IMG/VR virus record: IMGVR_UViG_3300022682_000016
Location: 1 to 64,000 of that record
Length of the DNA stretch: 64,000 nucleotides
Source of the DNA: a virus
Direction: 5' to 3' (one strand)
In this document: piece after piece, positions 516 to 13,552 of the stretch
Layout: each line of letters opens with the position of its first letter
How positions within the stretch are numbered: position 1 is the stretch's first letter
Notes under the pieces: model-generated
What the model saw: the letters and a program-made list of their open reading frames with translations, nothing else
The model's database searches: none
What the model was told of the DNA's origin: nothing
Position numbers and translations under genes: made by a program

Positions 516-651
516 CTTAACTCCAAAGTTGTAAGTTGTTTAAATAAAATATATTAAGATGTACTAAGGTATCAATATAGCTTATTTATAGTTGTGGAAA
601 ATGTGAAAATTCACCCCCCATATTTCCTTAACAGTATCTCAAATTTAAAAA

Positions 652-725
652 CAGGAGTGACCGGACTTGAACCGGCGACCTGATGCCTGACAAACAACTG
701 CTCTAGCCATCTGAGCTACACCCCT
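652..725 (-). tRNA. tRNA-Asp(GTC)
   Basis: AGGGGTGTAGCTCAGATGGCTAGAGCAGTTGTTTGTCAGGCATCAGGTCGCCGGTTCAAGTCCGGTCACTCCTG folds as a cloverleaf with anticodon GTC and discriminator G. Confidence 0.9.
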
Positions 726-802
726 ATTAATAACTTGTATACCGGTTTGGTCAGATAACCGGGAAGAGTTGCGTTTAACGTCTGTCACATAGACTAAATT
801 TG

Positions 803-883
803 TGCGCCAGGTTGGACTCGAACCAACCATATCCGAAGATAAGTGTTTTACAGACACCACCGGCACCCGGCCTGTTCTGACGC
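803..883 (-). tRNA. tRNA-Tyr(GTA) with atypical D-arm
   Basis: Acceptor stem GCGTCAG/CTGGCGC, anticodon arm GGTGT-CTGTAAA-ACACT, long variable arm TATCTTCGGATA, T-loop TTCGAGT. Confidence 0.85.
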
Positions 884-894
884 ATAATAAGTTT

Positions 895-925
895 AAAAAG
901 GGGCAGTTTGTTAAGCTACTCCCTT
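895..925 (-). terminator. Intrinsic terminator-like hairpin between tRNA-Arg and tRNA-Tyr
   Basis: AAGGGAGTAGCTT-AAC-AAACTGCCCC followed by TTTTT; the stem is imperfect. Confidence 0.5.
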
Positions 926-954
926 GAAAAATAATTACTAAAAACATAATAAAG

Positions 955-996
955 CTGTCAAAGACCATTTTTCCGCAGCCTAATGACTGTTACGGA
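955..996 (-). promoter_or_regulatory. CATTAGG-loop hairpin plus boxA-like element
   Basis: Hairpin CAGTC-ATTA-GGCTG followed by GGTCTTTGACAG, which resembles boxA (TGCTCTTTAACA). Confidence 0.45.
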
Positions 997-1001
997 CAAT
1001 T

Positions 1002-1077
1002 TGGCGTCCCTGGGAAGATTTAAACTCCCGACACCCTGATCCGTAGTCAGGTGCTCTGTTCGCTGAGCTACAGGGAC
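1002..1077 (-). tRNA. tRNA-Arg(ACG)
   Basis: GTCCCTG acceptor stem, CCTGA-CTACGGA-TCAGG anticodon arm and an encoded CCA. The T-loop is TTTAAAT and the D-loop lacks GG. Confidence 0.9.
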
Positions 1078-1087
1078 ATTATTTTAA

Positions 1088-1160
1088 TGTTCCGAGAAAG
1101 ATTTGAACTTTCGACCCTCTGGGTGTAAACCAGATGCGCTTACCTCTGCGCTACCGGAAC
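1088..1160 (-). tRNA. tRNA-Val(TAC)
   Basis: GTTCCGG acceptor stem, TCTGG-TTTACAC-CCAGA anticodon arm, TTCAAAT T-loop, discriminator A. Confidence 0.92.
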
Positions 1161-1169
1161 AATTATAAA

Positions 1170-1181
1170 TTTTAAAGAACA
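1170..1181 (-). promoter_or_regulatory. boxA-like antitermination element
   Basis: TGTTCTTTAAAA matches E. coli rrn boxA TGCTCTTTAACA at 10 of 12 positions and lies between the terminator and tRNA-Val. Confidence 0.55.
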
Positions 1182-1182
1182 T

Positions 1183-1211
1183 AAAAAAAGCCCCGGAACT
1201 TTCCGAGGCTT
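1183..1211 (-). terminator. Intrinsic terminator (attenuator) upstream of the tRNA array
   Basis: AAGCCTCGGA-AAGT-TCCGGGGC followed by T7. Confidence 0.85.
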
Positions 1212-1247
1212 CTTAATTCAAACAAAAACAATGACTTAAGAAACCCC
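1205..1247 (-). promoter_or_regulatory. Antiterminator hairpin, mutually exclusive with the terminator
   Basis: GGGGTTTCTTAA (1247-1236) pairs over 12 bp with TTAAGAAGCCTC (1216-1205), which includes the 5' arm of the terminator. Confidence 0.75.
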
Positions 1248-1403
1248 TTACACACAACCTCCTTCACGGTTATCAGCAAAGAGATGTGATTTTAATACTG
1301 GTGTATATGCACACATAACAATGCTAATCCTCTGGACAGATTTGTCCAACGGTTGCCATGTTTGTCTGGATATAGTATTAAAATTCTTCTGTAAGGAAAA
1401 CAT
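1248..1403 (-). CDS. Leader peptide, 51 aa (below the ORF-track size cut-off)
   Basis: SD TAGGAC then ATG; translates to MFSLQKNFNTISRQTWQPLDKSVQRISIVMCAYTPVLKSHLFADNREGGCV*. The stop codon abuts the antiterminator. Confidence 0.75.
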   Translation of the reverse strand: MFSLQKNFNTISRQTWQPLDKSVQRISIVMCAYTPVLKSHLFADNREGGCV

Positions 1404-1429
1404 AAGTCCTAACCTAATGTTAATTAAAA

Positions 1430-1570
1430 TTCTTTGAAAAAGAGTGTTTATGACCGAAGAGCAGGGAATGAATAGGCTTAAAGCCTAGGTTGGTACGGAT
1501 ACTAAAACGGTTATCGGGTTTCTGAATCTTCAATCGAGCACTACTTCTCAAAGAACACGACCTAATGGTC
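1430..1570 (-). ncRNA. Long structured 5' leader RNA with boxB/boxA-like elements
   Basis: GACC-ATTA-GGTC hairpin, then TGTTCTTTGAGA. 1430-1555 folds into a long stem (UUCUUUGAGAAG/UUUUUCAAAGAA, GAUUGAAGA/UCUUCGGUC) with internal hairpins. Confidence 0.45.
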
Positions 1571-1577
1571 AGGATTA

Positions 1578-1606
1578 AAGATAAGTTAAGAAAACAAAAT
1601 ATGCAA
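1578..1606 (-). promoter_or_regulatory. sigma70-like promoter of the leader/tRNA transcript
   Basis: TTGCAT-N17-TATCTT; the same -10 occurs at 17013 and 41110. Confidence 0.65.
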
Positions 1607-1727: not shown

Positions 1728-1778
1728 AAGGCTTTGAAAGGAAACTCTTCTAACTTTTTATAAGTTGGATAAACCAGG
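1728..1778 (+). mobile_element. Orphan right end of IS607 element 2
   Basis: 1728-1781 matches 10174-10227 at 52 of 54 nt. Confidence 0.85.
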
Positions 1779-1784
1779 TGTATA

Positions 1785-2042
1785 ATGAAAGATTTTAATG
1801 ATACCCAATTAGCAAAATTTATTAAGAAGTACTCTTTCAAAAACTCTGATGAGTTATCTCCTGCATCAGACTTAGAGTCTGACTTAGGACTAGATTCCTT
1901 AGATAAAATAGAGTTGCTAATGGACATTGAAAATCAATATAACATCGAAACTCTTTCAGATGATGATTTATATACTATCAAGAGCATTCAAGATATTATA
2001 GATTATTTAGAAAAGAACAATGTCTCCCATAATTATCTGTAG
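1785..2042 (+). CDS. acpP: Acyl carrier protein
   Basis: Acidic 85-aa protein with the DLGLDSLD phosphopantetheine attachment motif. Confidence 0.85.
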   Translation: MKDFNDTQLAKFIKKYSFKNSDELSPASDLESDLGLDSLDKIELLMDIENQYNIETLSDDDLYTIKSIQDIIDYLEKNNVSHNYL

Positions 2043-9020: not shown

Positions 9021-10199
9021 ATGAATCGTTCTCATAAAATAAGGCTTAGTCCTAATAATAAGCAGATCACTTATTTTAAAAAGGCTTGTGGTTGTGCAAG
9101 GCTTGCTTATAATTGGGGCTTGTCTGAATGGAAGATTCAATACGAAAACAAAGAAAAGCCGTCATCTTATTCTATAAAGAAAAAGTTTAACTCTATAAAG
9201 AAGACTAATTTTCCTTTTGTATATGAAGTGACAAAGACGGCTTGCGAGTCAGCGTTTAGCAACTTAGATAAGGCGTTTAAAGGGTTTTTCAGAAGAGTTA
9301 AGATAAATAAGAAACCTGGATACCCTAAGTTTAAGAAAAAAGGAATCCATGATTCATTTACTATTGATAACTCAAAATTTTCAATTCAAGAAAACAAAAT
9401 AAAGATTCCAAAGCTCGGTTTTGTTAAGATGGCTGAGGGTCTTCGTTTTGATGGAAAGATACTTTCTGCCACTATTTCAAGAACATCTAATATGTGGTTT
9501 GTTTCTATATCTGTTGATATTCCAAATGAGGAGAGTAAAAACCAAGCCTTCTCAGCAGTAGGAATTGATCTTGGTATTAGTAAACTTGCTACATTATCAG
9601 ACGGAACGGTGTTTGAAAATATAAAGACTACCAAAAAATATGAAAGGAGATTAAGAAGAATAAACAAGTCTTTATCTCGAAAGATTGTCGGAAGCAACAA
9701 TAGGTTGAAATCAAAATTTAAATTATCAAGATTGCATTATAAGATAAAATGTGTGCGAAGCGATTTTATTCACAAGATGACACAGACGATATCTGATAAT
9801 TTTACGGATGTTTTTATTGAGGACTTGAATGTTTCTGGAATGGTTAAGAATATGAAGTTATCTAAAGCCATTTCTGATGCATCTTTTTATGAGATACGAA
9901 GGCAACTTGAATACAAGGTTAAAAATGTCCGTACTGTAAATAGATTCTTCCCAAGCACCAAATTATGTTTCGAGTGTGGTACGATACATGAAATGCCATT
10001 AAGTAAAAGAGTTTTTAAATGTGACTGTAATGGAGTCGAAATTGATAGAGATGTTCATGCGACACAAAATATACTACGGCAGGGTTTGTCGAAAGTAAAG
10101 CCTGCGAAGATGGAAGCTCTGGCTGTTAGAAATAACAGTGAAACTACCGTCACTGAAGCAGGAAATCCACGTAAAGGTTTTGAAAGGAAACCCTTCTAA
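9021..10199 (+). CDS. tnpB: TnpB RNA-guided nuclease
   Basis: OrfB HTH (CGCARLAYNW), GYPKFK, RuvC motifs GIDLG / IEDL / DRDVHA and a zinc finger. Confidence 0.95.
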   Translation: MNRSHKIRLSPNNKQITYFKKACGCARLAYNWGLSEWKIQYENKEKPSSYSIKKKFNSIKKTNFPFVYEVTKTACESAFSNLDKAFKGFFRRVKINKKPGYPKFKKKGIHDSFTIDNSKFSIQENKIKIPKLGFVKMAEGLRFDGKILSATISRTSNMWFVSISVDIPNEESKNQAFSAVGIDLGISKLATLSDGTVFENIKTTKKYERRLRRINKSLSRKIVGSNNRLKSKFKLSRLHYKIKCVRSDFIHKMTQTISDNFTDVFIEDLNVSGMVKNMKLSKAISDASFYEIRRQLEYKVKNVRTVNRFFPSTKLCFECGTIHEMPLSKRVFKCDCNGVEIDRDVHATQNILRQGLSKVKPAKMEALAVRNNSETTVTEAGNPRKGFERKPF

Positions 10200-10848
10200 C
10201 TTTTTATAAGTTGGATAAACCAGGTGTTGAATATTTAGCATTCTGCTCCTATTTCGACCCTTCCAAAGGACCTAAATCCATAAAACTTATAGGACATCAA
10301 CGAATATTGAGAGATGCTTGGGACAATGCTCTAAAGGCGGGATTACGATCTATCCAAGGAAAAGTTGTTGGGATGGAAGATTATTTCGATGTAAAGCCTT
10401 TGAGTGATAATAGTAGCTTCTACTGGGAAGATATCCAATTCAGTATTGTACAAAGTGTACATATTATGGATGGCTACTCTATCGTACCTTCCTACGGATT
10501 AATGATCAAAGACACGAACAACGATAAGAAGGTTTATATAACATCTGACAGTCAATTCAATCCTAATCAGATTAAAGATTTTTATGACCAAGCAGATATT
10601 ATTATTCAAGATTGCGAGACGGCCCCGTTTCAATCAGGTGTTCATGCCCACTACACCGAACTAGCCACACTCTCAGATAATATTCGGTCAAAAATGATTC
10701 TTATCCATTATCAAGACAACATTATAAATGAGTGGGATAGTTCACAGAAAAAAGCAAAAGGGGATGGATTTATTGGCTTCGCAAAACCAGGCATCGATGT
10801 CTTGACCCAAACAACTGACTCAGAAATAAAATAAAAAAGGAGTATACT

Positions 10849-12844: not shown

Positions 12845-13420
12845 ATGGGCGAATTTGATGACGCAACTTTAAAGTTGGTTACAAAAGTTGTTAAATCCAC
12901 AGTGCAGGAAGACAAAAAGTCTGAAGACTCTGTAGTAGAAACAGTGTTAGAATCCGAAGTCCAACCTGGAGCGTTTAGTGCTTATAGCAAAGATTTAGAA
13001 AACTTTGTATTCTCTAATCGATGCTGGGAAAGTTTCAAAACTGGAAAACAGGTAGGTATTTGGAGATTTAAATTATCTGACCCTGCTGACGGGTCATTAA
13101 TTGCAGAAATAGGTGAGTGTATTATAAAAAATATAGCAGTAAAAATTGGTAAAGAAGATGTTAAAGTCGTTACCATAACCATTACTCACCGATTCACAAA
13201 CTCCCAAAAAGCTTTGGAATGTGCAGTTTCTACACATGTCCTGACAACACTTACTAGAGATACTGAAATTTTCTCAAATATTGAAGATGAATCCGGAGAA
13301 GATGTCTCTGAAGATAATTTTACAGTAAAATATTCAAAAACTACTGCACAAGACTCTGAAAAAGATGGAAATGCCGTTATAGAAGAAGAACCTGTATTGG
13401 GGGAAGAAACAGTCCTGTAA
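12845..13420 (+). CDS. Hypothetical protein
   Basis: AAGGA SD; acidic C-terminal tail. Confidence 0.7.
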   Translation: MGEFDDATLKLVTKVVKSTVQEDKKSEDSVVETVLESEVQPGAFSAYSKDLENFVFSNRCWESFKTGKQVGIWRFKLSDPADGSLIAEIGECIIKNIAVKIGKEDVKVVTITITHRFTNSQKALECAVSTHVLTTLTRDTEIFSNIEDESGEDVSEDNFTVKYSKTTAQDSEKDGNAVIEEEPVLGEETVL

Positions 13421-13517
13421 AAAAAGAACCCCCCAGTTTAGAAAGCTAGGGGGCAAGAAAAGCTGGGTGAGCCAATGGTTGCTGAGCATTTTTCACCCAC
13501 AAAGATAGGACTTTGTT
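13419..13517 (-). ncRNA. Candidate ~100-nt small RNA
   Basis: Has its own promoter, two hairpins and a terminator (GCCCCCTAG/CTGGGGGGT then TCTTTTTTT). Confidence 0.6.
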
Positions 13518-13523
13518 AGTAAT

Positions 13524-13552
13524 AATCTAACTAATATAGTTTGTTGTGTCAA
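13524..13552 (-). promoter_or_regulatory. sigma70-like promoter of the small RNA
   Basis: TTGACA-N17-TAGATT. Confidence 0.6.

What the first reader, a model, noticed from the sequence alone, without database searches (positions are those of the whole stretch)
1170..1606. All-20-amino-acid leader peptide with an attenuator gating the phage tRNA array: a candidate general translation-stress sensor
Seen, on the minus strand in order: a promoter (TTGCAT-N17-TATCTT), a structured leader, an SD, and a 51-codon ORF (1403-1248). The ORF contains all 20 amino acids and 39 different sense codons: all four Val codons, four Ser, three Arg, three Leu, and both codons for Gln, Lys, Asn and Asp. Its stop codon is followed directly by GGGGTTTCTTAA, which pairs over 12 bp with TTAAGAAGCCTC. 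That second segment is the 5' arm of a strong terminator (GCCTCGGA-AAGT-TCCGGGGC-T7) ending about 22 nt before tRNA-Val. Known: in trp/his-type attenuation, a ribosome at the leader stop masks the antiterminator strand so the terminator forms, while upstream stalling allows read-through. Those leaders are enriched for one or a few amino acids. Inference: this leader samples nearly the whole tRNA pool. Loss of almost any tRNA (host anticodon nucleases of the PrrC, PARIS or retron type, other toxins, or starvation) would stall the ribosome and switch on the phage's replacement tRNAs. I see no upstream strand that sequesters the antiterminator, so failed translation should default to ON. I do not know of this circuit being described for phage tRNA arrays, but I cannot search the literature.
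Basis: partly seen in the sequence, partly recalled or inferred. Interest (0 to 1): 0.92.

Follow-up and report, generated by a model that had tools for sequence, protein, structure and literature searches.

The report
Possible ribosome-read switch before phage tRNAs
On a phage genome fragment, a small and unusually codon-diverse reading frame ends exactly at a stop/go pair of RNA hairpins 22 bases before four tRNA genes; this fits a ribosome-read transcription switch, but no evidence here shows that it is translated, conserved or linked to tRNA loss.

Summary
These are the weak promoter match, the 51-codon ORF (20 amino acids, 39 codons), the 12-bp antiterminator starting right after the stop codon, and a strong terminator 22 nt before tRNA-Val.

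Statistics give moderate support. Thirty-nine codons ties the record's maximum (about 1% of matched random frames). The antiterminator beats 99.6% of shuffles. The full attenuator geometry arises in 0.1-1% of whole-leader shuffles. No promoter fits between terminator and tRNA.

- The ORF interior is among the most structured RNA in the record (z -4.4).
- The start region can pair with the stop region.
- At equilibrium the terminator always wins.
- Codons for Val, Arg, Tyr and Asp are not enriched.
- The peptide has no homologue in 1.8 billion proteins.

No relative carrying this region could be fetched, so conservation is untested.

My odds:
- ribosome-read kinetic attenuator: 0.35, of which the pan-tRNA anti-defence reading is about 0.12;
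- autonomous structured RNA or small gene with a leaky terminator: 0.3;
- factor-dependent antitermination, as in 933W: 0.2.

This scan has noted similar leader-plus-terminator units before phage tRNA arrays on other DNA. I did not verify those notes.

The parts
1578..1606 (-). Sigma-70-like promoter candidate TTGCAT-N17-TATCTT, preceded by an A/T-rich tract. The predicted transcript start is near 1571.
   Evidence: Read. It has 8 of 12 consensus matches and is therefore not listed by the scan. It is inferred, not shown.
1558..1571 (-). Five-bp hairpin with an AUUA loop at the predicted 5' end. It carries the first CATTAGG copy.
1430..1556 (-). 127-nt long-stem RNA element. It encloses a 43-codon TTG ORF (1551-1420) whose start codon lies inside the 13-bp basal stem.
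   Evidence: Folding 1428-1560 gives -33.4 kcal/mol, z = -4.0. The ORF43 start region folds more stably (-10.0 kcal/mol) than the start regions of all 59 long genes.
1404..1419 (-). Translation initiation region of the 51-codon ORF: the second CATTAGG copy, AGG (1415-1413) 9 nt before the ATG, and AGGA (1410-1407) 3 nt before it.
   Evidence: The local fold from -25 to +25 is -3.5 kcal/mol, as open as real genes (mean -4.7).
1248..1403 (-). 51-codon ORF with 20 amino acids and 39 codons. Its interior forms a long imperfect hairpin plus a second hairpin. The SD-like octamer AAGGAGGT lies at 1264-1257.
   Evidence: The interior fold has z = -4.4. The coding score lies between genes and spurious ORFs. 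No homologue was found.
1233..1252 (-). Segment 2: the last codon, the stop codon and the antiterminator 5' arm (1247-1236). It can pair either with the start region (1408-1403 and 1398-1390) or with segment 3.
1205..1216 (-). Segment 3: the antiterminator 3' arm, TTAAGAAGCCTC. It overlaps 5 of the 8 bases of the core terminator 5' arm.
1183..1209 (-). Intrinsic terminator: an 8-bp G+C-rich stem with loop AAGT, extendable to 12-13 bp, followed by T7.
   Evidence: It is the best of only 4 strict terminator matches in 90 kb.
651..1161 (-). Four tRNA genes: Val-TAC, Arg-ACG, Tyr-GTA and Asp-GTC. None encodes CCA.
896..985 (-). Second module inside the array. It comprises the third CATTAGG copy in a 5-bp hairpin with an AUUA loop, an ATG 10 nt later (968), and a bulged 7-bp hairpin plus T5 (924-896) 12 nt before tRNA-Tyr.
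   Evidence: The hairpin was read by eye and not scored.

Best explanation
The roughly 390-nt stretch between a weak sigma-70-like promoter and tRNA-Val is the leader of a leftward tRNA operon. That leader ends in the record's strongest intrinsic terminator. I think it most likely acts as a kinetic attenuator read by the ribosome.

Proposed sequence of events:
1. A ribosome loads on the nascent transcript at AGG-N9-ATG and translates the 51-codon ORF.
2. If the ribosome is on the last two or three codons or the stop codon when RNA polymerase makes the terminator's 3' arm (about 60-70 nt downstream), it covers the 12 nt after the stop. The antiterminator cannot form, the terminator folds, and transcription ends 22 nt before the tRNAs.
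3. If the ribosome is absent, late, or stalled anywhere in codons 1-48, the local antiterminator hairpin forms first. It holds 5 of the 8 core bases of the terminator's 5' arm, and polymerase runs on into the tRNA genes.

What is shown: the sequence elements, their mutually exclusive pairings, their improbability in shuffled controls, and the lack of a separate promoter match.

What is inferred: that the ORF is translated, that the antiterminator delays terminator folding long enough to matter, and that read-through changes with translation.

The further claim is weaker. It holds that the ORF's even codon content makes it a sensor of the whole tRNA pool, used against host anticodon nucleases. 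I give that about one third of this hypothesis's probability.
For: - All elements sit at the stated coordinates.
- The terminator is the best of only 4 strict matches in 90 kb and lies 22 nt before tRNA-Val, with no promoter-like site between them. The only TATAAT there ends 1 nt before the tRNA.
- The antiterminator hairpin folds at -17.1 kcal/mol. It is matched or beaten by 0.4% of dinucleotide shuffles of the 46 nt upstream of its 3' arm.
- The full geometry is rare in whole-leader shuffles. A sequestering hairpin plus an ATG ORF of at least 20 codons ending -3 to +9 nt before the arm occurs in 1.1%, and in 0.13% with an AGG SD as well.
- A scan of ribosome positions gives a clean switch at codons 49-50 in the transcript that lacks the terminator's 3' arm.
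- The distance from the stop codon to the U tract is about 65 nt. From my own knowledge, this is close to the spacing in the trp leader.
- The ORF's local start region is as unstructured as those of real genes. AGG or ATTAGG 8-10 nt before the start also occurs at several real genes of this phage.
- Codon diversity is at the record's maximum.
- The minus-strand helix has two G-U pairs that would be C-A mismatches on the plus strand (sequence).
Against: - There is no comparative support. The peptide has no homologue among 1.84 billion representative proteins. Metagenomic relatives (helicase 56-72% identical) have no tRNAs and no similar leader in the stretches held.
- The ORF interior alone folds with z = -4.4, and the 1213-1412 window ranks 15th of 3,606 windows in the record. 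This is atypical for leader peptides and expected for a structured RNA.
- The coding score is ambiguous. Only 6% of gene windows score lower, and 21% of spurious small ORFs score higher.
- Once the terminator's 3' arm is present, the terminator wins at every ribosome position (P = 0.98). Only 3 nt (GGA) of the core 5' arm stay free as a toehold, so strand displacement could still be quick.
- Codons for the four gated tRNAs are not enriched.
- Given the peptide, 39 codons is unremarkable against base composition (P = 0.11).
- The promoter match is weak (8 of 12).
- The neighbouring 43-codon ORF has the same CATTAGG-N9-start layout but a buried start. That layout alone therefore does not prove translation.
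Confidence: 0.35

Rival explanations
1. The promoter, the structured 390 nt and the terminator form a self-contained unit. It would be a stable non-coding RNA, possibly two domains of about 130 and 250 nt, or a small early gene. Its terminator is simply leaky, so the tRNAs behind it are made constitutively at a reduced level or released by RNase P. On this reading the ORF, its codon diversity and the position of its stop are coincidences. The 'antiterminator' is just one helix of the RNA.
For: - The region folds far better than shuffles: z = -5.3 for 1178-1585, -4.0 for the 5' domain, -3.9 for 1212-1427 and -4.4 for the ORF interior.
- It is comparable to the tRNA windows in the record-wide scan.
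- Both small ORFs have their start and end regions clamped together by long-range helices.
- The peptide is an orphan, and its coding score is not gene-like.
- A 39-codon window also occurs at one clearly spurious locus.
- Published phages also carry strong hairpins with U runs just before tRNA genes, with no known regulation. Examples are TsarBomba and Ah1, and 933W, whose terminators are annotated.
- From my own knowledge, T4 makes small stable RNAs from its tRNA cluster.
Against: - The joint geometry (a hairpin that sequesters the terminator arm plus an ATG ORF with an SD site ending at that arm) is rare in shuffles (0.13-1.1%).
- No Rfam family matches above threshold.
- Placing the strongest terminator of the record directly in front of genes that have no promoter of their own is an odd way to express them constitutively.
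Confidence: 0.3
2. The terminator is a timing gate overcome by a phage or host factor rather than by ribosome position. The factor could act processively, as N or Q do, or through a boxA/Nus complex or a cis-acting RNA. It could also be an RNA-binding protein that stabilises the antiterminator. The tRNAs and the genes behind them would then be switched on at a set stage of infection.
For: - A direct precedent is annotated in phage 933W: late promoter pR', a qut site, two rho-independent terminators 'upstream of the tRNA genes', then ileZ, argN and argO.
- The unit heads the leftward arm of a divergent control region. The rightward arm holds replication genes, and the minus strand elsewhere holds head, baseplate and lysis genes.
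- CATTAGG occurs three times within 600 nt of this operon, against about 0.04 expected. Two copies sit in matching 5-bp hairpins with AUUA loops, as repeated protein-binding sites would.
- A UGCUCUU heptamer resembling rrn boxA lies at about 1455-1449 (the resemblance is from my own knowledge).
Against: - Searches with Pfam PF06530 and PF03589 (Q-type antiterminators) and PF04542 (sigma-70 region 2) found nothing on the record. The record is only about 49% complete, so this is weak.
- Processive antitermination needs no antiterminator hairpin, yet that hairpin is significant.
- Each CATTAGG copy also lies 9-10 nt before a start codon, so the motif may be a ribosome-binding site instead.
Confidence: 0.2

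Closest known systems
Leader-peptide transcription attenuators of amino-acid operons (trp, his, leu, thr, ilv, phe leaders)
   Same: All have a short ORF with SD and start codon, a stop codon placed just before the strand that forms the antiterminator, and a mutually exclusive antiterminator and intrinsic terminator. The distance from stop codon to U tract is about 65 nt, and the regulated genes follow immediately.
   Different: - The ORF is longer (51 codons, against 14-32 in the classical leaders, from my own knowledge).
- It has no run of regulatory codons and no enrichment for the amino acids of the gated tRNAs.
- Its interior is strongly structured.
- Without translation the predicted default is read-through, not super-attenuation.
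- The regulated genes are phage tRNAs.
- Rfam His_leader (27.9 bits against 49) and Phe_leader (24.2 against 55) are below threshold, and the matches rest on the terminator alone.
General stall-sensing upstream ORFs: the whiB7 uORF attenuator of mycobacteria (PMC10274678) and toiL of E. coli topAI-yjhQ (PMC12121999)
   Same: The logic is the same: ribosome stalling anywhere in an upstream ORF, from many causes, relieves premature termination. For whiB7, the abstract reports activation by knock-down of amino-acid biosynthesis genes, tRNAs and tRNA synthetases. For toiL, the title reports sensing of several classes of ribosome-targeting antibiotics.
   Different: There is no sequence relationship. 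The whiB7 uORF is alanine-enriched rather than even. Those systems control a stress regulator or a toxin-antitoxin pair in bacteria, not tRNA genes of a phage. The function is shown there and only inferred here.
Lambdoid late control pR'-qut-tR' with tRNA genes behind the terminators (phage 933W, NC_000924)
   Same: Both have a promoter, a short terminated leader transcript, and rho-independent terminators directly upstream of a phage tRNA cluster.
   Different: Read-through in 933W is by Q protein acting at the promoter. No Q, N or sigma gene was found on this fragment. 933W also has a putative separate tRNA promoter (pT), whereas none fits here. This leader also carries an ORF coupled to an antiterminator hairpin.
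T-box riboswitches (tRNA-sensing leaders of Firmicutes)
   Same: Both are structured leaders of several hundred nucleotides ending in an antiterminator/terminator pair. A link to tRNA status is shown for T-boxes and only conjectured here.
   Different: There is no Rfam T-box match even at E <= 10.

Membership tests
Leader-peptide (ribosome-mediated) transcription attenuator | Short ORF in the leader with a usable ribosome-binding site and start codon | tested here: met
   There is an ATG at 1403, AGG 9 nt upstream and AGGA 3 nt upstream. The local fold is as open as those of real genes. This holds at sequence level only. Translation itself cannot be tested with these tools.
Leader-peptide (ribosome-mediated) transcription attenuator | Intrinsic terminator between the leader ORF and the regulated genes, with no promoter after it | tested here: met
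   The terminator lies at 1209-1183 and is the best in the record. There is a 22-nt gap to tRNA-Val with no promoter-like match on the minus strand.
Leader-peptide (ribosome-mediated) transcription attenuator | Antiterminator helix mutually exclusive with the terminator | tested here: met
   The 12-bp helix 1247-1236 / 1216-1205 folds at -17.1 kcal/mol, is matched or beaten by 0.4% of shuffles, and overlaps 5 of 8 core bases of the terminator arm.
Leader-peptide (ribosome-mediated) transcription attenuator | Ribosome position in the ORF selects between the two folds | tested here: met
   This holds in silico only. Antiterminator probability is 0.8-1.0 for A-site codons 1-48 and 0 for codon 50 to the stop, in the transcript lacking the terminator's 3' arm. 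At full equilibrium the terminator always wins.
Leader-peptide (ribosome-mediated) transcription attenuator | Regulatory codons cognate to the regulated product, usually in tandem | tested here: not met
   Val, Arg, Tyr and Asp make up 10 of 51 codons against a 20.8% background (P = 0.64). There are no tandem runs.
Leader-peptide (ribosome-mediated) transcription attenuator | An anti-antiterminator (1:2) helix that restores termination when the leader is not translated | tested here: inconclusive
   A helix between the start region and the stop region exists in the full-length minimum-energy fold. It yields to the antiterminator once segment 3 is present.
Leader-peptide (ribosome-mediated) transcription attenuator | Conservation of the ORF, stop position and helices in relatives, with covariation | not testable with these tools
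Rfam leader families (His_leader RF00514, Phe_leader RF01859) | Score at or above the family's gathering threshold | tested here: not met
   Scores are 27.9 bits against 49 and 24.2 bits against 55. The alignments are carried by the terminator hairpin.
Processive antitermination unit (lambda / 933W pR'-tR' type) | An antiterminator protein gene (Q or N type) in the genome | tested here: inconclusive
   PF06530 and PF03589 give no match, but the record is a linear fragment estimated at 49% complete.
Processive antitermination unit (lambda / 933W pR'-tR' type) | Terminator(s) between a promoter and the tRNA or late genes | tested here: met
   here. The same layout is annotated in 933W.
T-box riboswitch | Match to the T-box covariance model, including the conserved T-box sequence in the antiterminator | tested here: not met
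   No hit at E <= 10.

The most novel reading that the evidence does not exclude
The 51-codon leader is a pan-codon test message. Because it holds every amino acid and samples most tRNA species, loss of almost any host tRNA would delay the ribosome, let the antiterminator form and switch on the phage's own tRNAs. Such loss could come from anticodon nucleases, other translation-directed defences, or starvation. This would be a translation-stress sensor wired to replacement tRNAs. Three of the four gated tRNAs (Tyr, Asp, Arg) belong to species that known anticodon nucleases cut. That point rests on my own knowledge of colicins E5 and D, and on the abstract of PMC11555353 for retron effectors and phage tRNAs.
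Probability: 0.12. Interest if true: 0.85.

Novelty: new variant of a known kind. Interest (0 to 1): 0.5.

Why it matters
Phage tRNA genes are now seen as countermeasures to host defences that destroy tRNAs (PMC10264068, PMC11464382, PMC11555353, listed). How their expression is controlled is hardly known.

If a leader ORF and antiterminator gate a phage tRNA operon, tRNA supply would be tied directly to how well ribosomes are decoding. That extends a classic bacterial mechanism to a new class of regulated genes and to phage-host conflict. The design is simple to test with reporters.

If the unit is instead a stable structured RNA or a timing gate, it is an ordinary part of phage transcription. 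Even then, the recurring placement of strong terminators right before phage tRNA genes deserves an explanation. It is seen here and in 933W, TsarBomba and Ah1.

Tried and rejected
- **Relatives carrying the leader.** None were found by:
  - blastn of 600-2100 against phages, which matched tRNAs only;
  - tblastn of the helicase against phages, at most 28% identity;
  - IMG/VR scans with the helicase, the helicase alignment, ORF72, the ACP-like protein, a tRNA-Val 31-mer and a Val-Arg junction pattern;
  - GTDB genomes.
- **Metagenome relatives.** L014-L025 (helicase 49-72% identical) hold no tRNA and nothing similar to 1-2800 apart from two small rightward genes. Their divergent control regions look different.
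- **Decayed tRNA idea.** Low-threshold ARAGORN calls in the leader (Ser at 1253-1177, Asn at 984-909, an 'intron' Thr) are poor structures and were rejected.
- **Separate tRNA promoter.** The TATAAT at 1167-1162 ends 1 nt before the tRNA and has no -35 element, so it was rejected.
- **SD-like octamer as a ribosome parking site.** AAGGAGGT at 1264-1257 occurs 6 times in the record, mostly not at genes, so it is not significant.
- **Codon matching to the four tRNAs.** Absent.
- **Control set of terminators.** Only 4 strict terminators exist in the record, too few for a comparison.
- **Mini-survey of published phages.** Results were mixed. 933W, TsarBomba and Ah1 have hairpin-plus-U-run elements before tRNA genes. 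S-SCSM1 does not, and CcrSC is unclear.
Full report
**Setting**

The window is the first 64 kb of a 90,312-bp linear virus record with 36% G+C. CheckV rates the record about 49% complete.

- Plus-strand genes from 1785 onward encode an acyl-carrier-like protein, helicases, DnaB, primase, RecA, a clamp loader and PolA. IS607-type elements lie among them.
- The minus strand from 42.8 kb to the far end encodes the baseplate, lysin and major head proteins.
- The finding lies in the 620-bp divergent region between the two arms, at the head of a leftward unit. That unit runs leader, terminator, four tRNA genes, a 72-codon ORF, then the contig end.
- Only four tRNAs are found on the record. More may lie on the missing half.

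- The promoter match is weak, at 8 of 12.
- The 51-codon ORF has 20 amino acids and 39 codons.
- The 12-bp helix begins immediately after the stop codon. The terminator ends 22 nt before tRNA-Val.
- With strict criteria only four terminators exist in 90 kb, and this is the best of them.
- No promoter-like site lies between it and the tRNA. The only TATAAT ends one base before the tRNA.
- Whatever else is true, transcripts reaching these tRNAs from the upstream promoter must pass this terminator.

**Is it more than chance?**

Codon diversity:
- Thirty-nine codons is the record's maximum over 31,517 stop-free 51-codon windows. One clearly spurious antisense locus ties it.
- No window inside long genes reaches 39 (mean 28.9).
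- Random open frames of the same composition reach 39 in 0.95% of cases, hold all 20 amino acids in 4.6%, and do both in 0.16%.
- Given the peptide, the synonymous codon choice is unusual against the phage's codon usage (P = 0.017) but not against base composition (P = 0.11).
- The signal is therefore mostly evenness of amino acids in a sequence without codon bias. A random untranslated frame would look the same about once in a hundred, and the statistic was chosen after the ORF was seen.

Geometry:
- The RNA geometry is the stronger evidence. Among dinucleotide shuffles of the 46 nt upstream of the antiterminator's 3' arm, 0.4% give a hairpin at least as stable as the native one that also sequesters the terminator arm.
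- Shuffling the whole 356-nt leader gives a sequestering hairpin plus an ATG ORF of at least 20 codons ending beside it in 1.1% of trials. Requiring an AGG at SD distance lowers this to 0.13%.

**How the folds behave**

- Folding the growing transcript shows the start region (1408-1403, 1398-1390) pairing with the stop region (1252-1244, 1238-1233) as soon as the latter is made.
- When segment 3 appears, the antiterminator takes over (10-12 bp).
- When the terminator's 3' arm appears, the minimum-energy fold returns to the start-stop helix plus the terminator.
- I masked 30 nt for a ribosome at each codon. Before the 3' arm exists, the antiterminator has probability 0.8-1.0 with no ribosome or with the A site at codons 1-48, 0.4 at codon 49 and 0 from codon 50 to the stop. 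With the 3' arm present, the terminator has probability 0.98 at all but two ribosome positions (0.95 at codon 47, 0.86 at codon 48).
The predicted default without translation is still ON.

**Is the ORF translated?**

For translation:
- The start is ATG.
- AGG lies 9 nt upstream, a pattern also seen at several real genes of this SD-using phage.
- The local start region is as open as those of real genes (-3.5 against a mean of -4.7 kcal/mol).

Against translation:
- The coding score falls between genes and spurious ORFs.
- There is no homologue among 1.84 billion representative proteins.
- The ORF interior alone folds with z = -4.4. The 1213-1412 window ranks 15th of 3,606 windows in a record-wide scan, level with the tRNAs.
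- The 5' 127-nt long-stem element is also significant (z = -4.0). It encloses a 43-codon TTG ORF whose start is buried more deeply than that of any real gene.

These structures fit an RNA with a function of its own at least as well as a leader peptide.

**Does the pan-tRNA idea fit?**

- The ORF samples most tRNA species, but 22 sense codons are absent.
- The four gated tRNAs (Val, Arg, Tyr, Asp) have no excess of cognate codons in the leader (10 of 51 against 20.8%).
- A stall at, say, a lysine codon would switch on tRNAs that cannot relieve it, unless further tRNAs lie on the missing half of the genome.
- Three of the four gated species are known nuclease targets. This is my own knowledge, and it is context, not evidence.

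**Comparison with what is known**

- No Rfam family reaches threshold. The His and Phe leader hits are carried by the terminator hairpin.
- Two literature searches turned up no leader-peptide attenuator described for phage tRNA genes.
- General stall-sensing upstream ORFs are known: whiB7 (PMC10274678) and toiL (PMC12121999).
- Terminators placed before phage tRNA genes are also known. The 933W record annotates pR', qut, two rho-independent terminators 'upstream of the tRNA genes', a putative tRNA promoter, and then ileZ, argN and argO. Read-through there is by Q.
- In a small look at published phages, Bacillus phage TsarBomba has a 24-codon ORF with an SD site that runs into a 14-bp terminator-like stem shortly before the first of its 20 tRNAs. 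Aeromonas phage Ah1 has a strong hairpin and U run just before tRNA-Leu. S-SCSM1 has neither.
- In TsarBomba the ORF overlaps the terminator's 5' arm, which would give the opposite sign of control. The layouts are therefore not one uniform device.
- Notes from this scan describe several 'leader-peptide attenuators before phage tRNA arrays' on other genomes, some said to be conserved. I could not check them and do not count them as support. They did prompt the codon-matching test, which is negative here, and led me to the whiB7 paper.

**Verdict**

I rate a ribosome-read kinetic attenuator as the single most likely mechanism (0.35). Within that, the anti-defence pan-tRNA sensor is a minority reading (about 0.12 overall).

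Two rivals stay close:
- a self-contained structured RNA or small gene with a leaky terminator (0.3);
- a factor-dependent antitermination gate of the 933W kind (0.2). The threefold CATTAGG motif in matching small hairpins speaks for this one.

Noticed in passing
window 1567-1561, 1419-1413, 985-979 (minus strand): CATTAGG occurs three times within 600 nt of the tRNA operon, against about 0.04 expected there and 14 copies in the whole record. Each copy lies 9-10 nt before a start codon (TTG 1551, ATG 1403, ATG 968). Two copies sit in 5-bp hairpins with an AUUA loop. The motif could be a ribosome-binding site or a protein-binding site.
   Followed up: partly
window 896-968 (minus strand): A bulged 7-bp hairpin plus T5 (924-896) lies 12 nt before tRNA-Tyr. 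An ATG ORF precedes it and stays open for 107 codons through tRNA-Tyr and tRNA-Asp, stopping right after tRNA-Asp (645). This may be a second gate inside the array, or chance.
   Followed up: partly
window 1430-1556 (minus strand): A 127-nt long-stem RNA element lies at the 5' end of the leader (-33.4 kcal/mol, z = -4.0). It contains a UGCUCUU heptamer resembling rrn boxA in its 3' arm. No Rfam match.
   Followed up: partly
window 1728-1781; 10174-10227; G000 83531-83561: A 54-nt stretch between the leader promoter and the ACP-like gene is 96% identical to the end of the second serine-recombinase/TnpB (IS607-type) element. A 31-nt core recurs at 83.5 kb on the other strand. The tRNA module therefore borders a mobile-element end.
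   Followed up: partly
window 1785-2042 (+): An 85-residue protein with a phosphopantetheine-attachment (acyl carrier) domain (PF00550, E = 2e-10) is the first gene of the rightward arm.
   Followed up: no
window 13420-13552 (minus strand): A small RNA candidate with a TTGACA-N17-TAGATT promoter and its own terminator. Its 5' end holds AAGUCCUA, complementary to UAGGACUU between the SD site and the start of the 51-codon ORF. Eight bases alone is not significant.
   Followed up: partly
L179 4260-4360 (Bacillus phage TsarBomba, KT224359): A 24-codon ORF with an SD site runs into the 5' arm of a 14-bp terminator-like stem whose U-rich tail ends shortly before the first of 20 tRNA genes. The stop codon lies in the loop. 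This layout would make translation favour read-through.
   Followed up: partly
L180 2255-2322 (Aeromonas phage Ah1, MG250483): A strong G+C-rich hairpin followed by a U run lies directly before tRNA-Leu(caa). Just upstream is an unannotated tRNA-like stretch with a GGTTCGAATCC T-arm.
   Followed up: no
G000 80009-82528 (minus strand; L174 2009-4528): An 839-residue protein whose N-terminal 100 residues match a PHROG annotated as RNA ligase (E = 9e-11). This could be relevant to RNA or tRNA repair.
   Followed up: no
window 1257-1264 (minus strand): A perfect SD-like octamer, AAGGAGGT, lies 7 nt before the ORF's stop codon and pairs with a CACAUCUCUU stretch in the second internal hairpin. There are six copies in the record, mostly not at genes, so it is a curiosity only.
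   Followed up: yes
G000 87.4-90.3 kb: Several 200-nt windows near the far end of the record are among the most structured in the scan (z -2.9 to -3.6, both strands). No Rfam family reaches its threshold there.
   Followed up: partly
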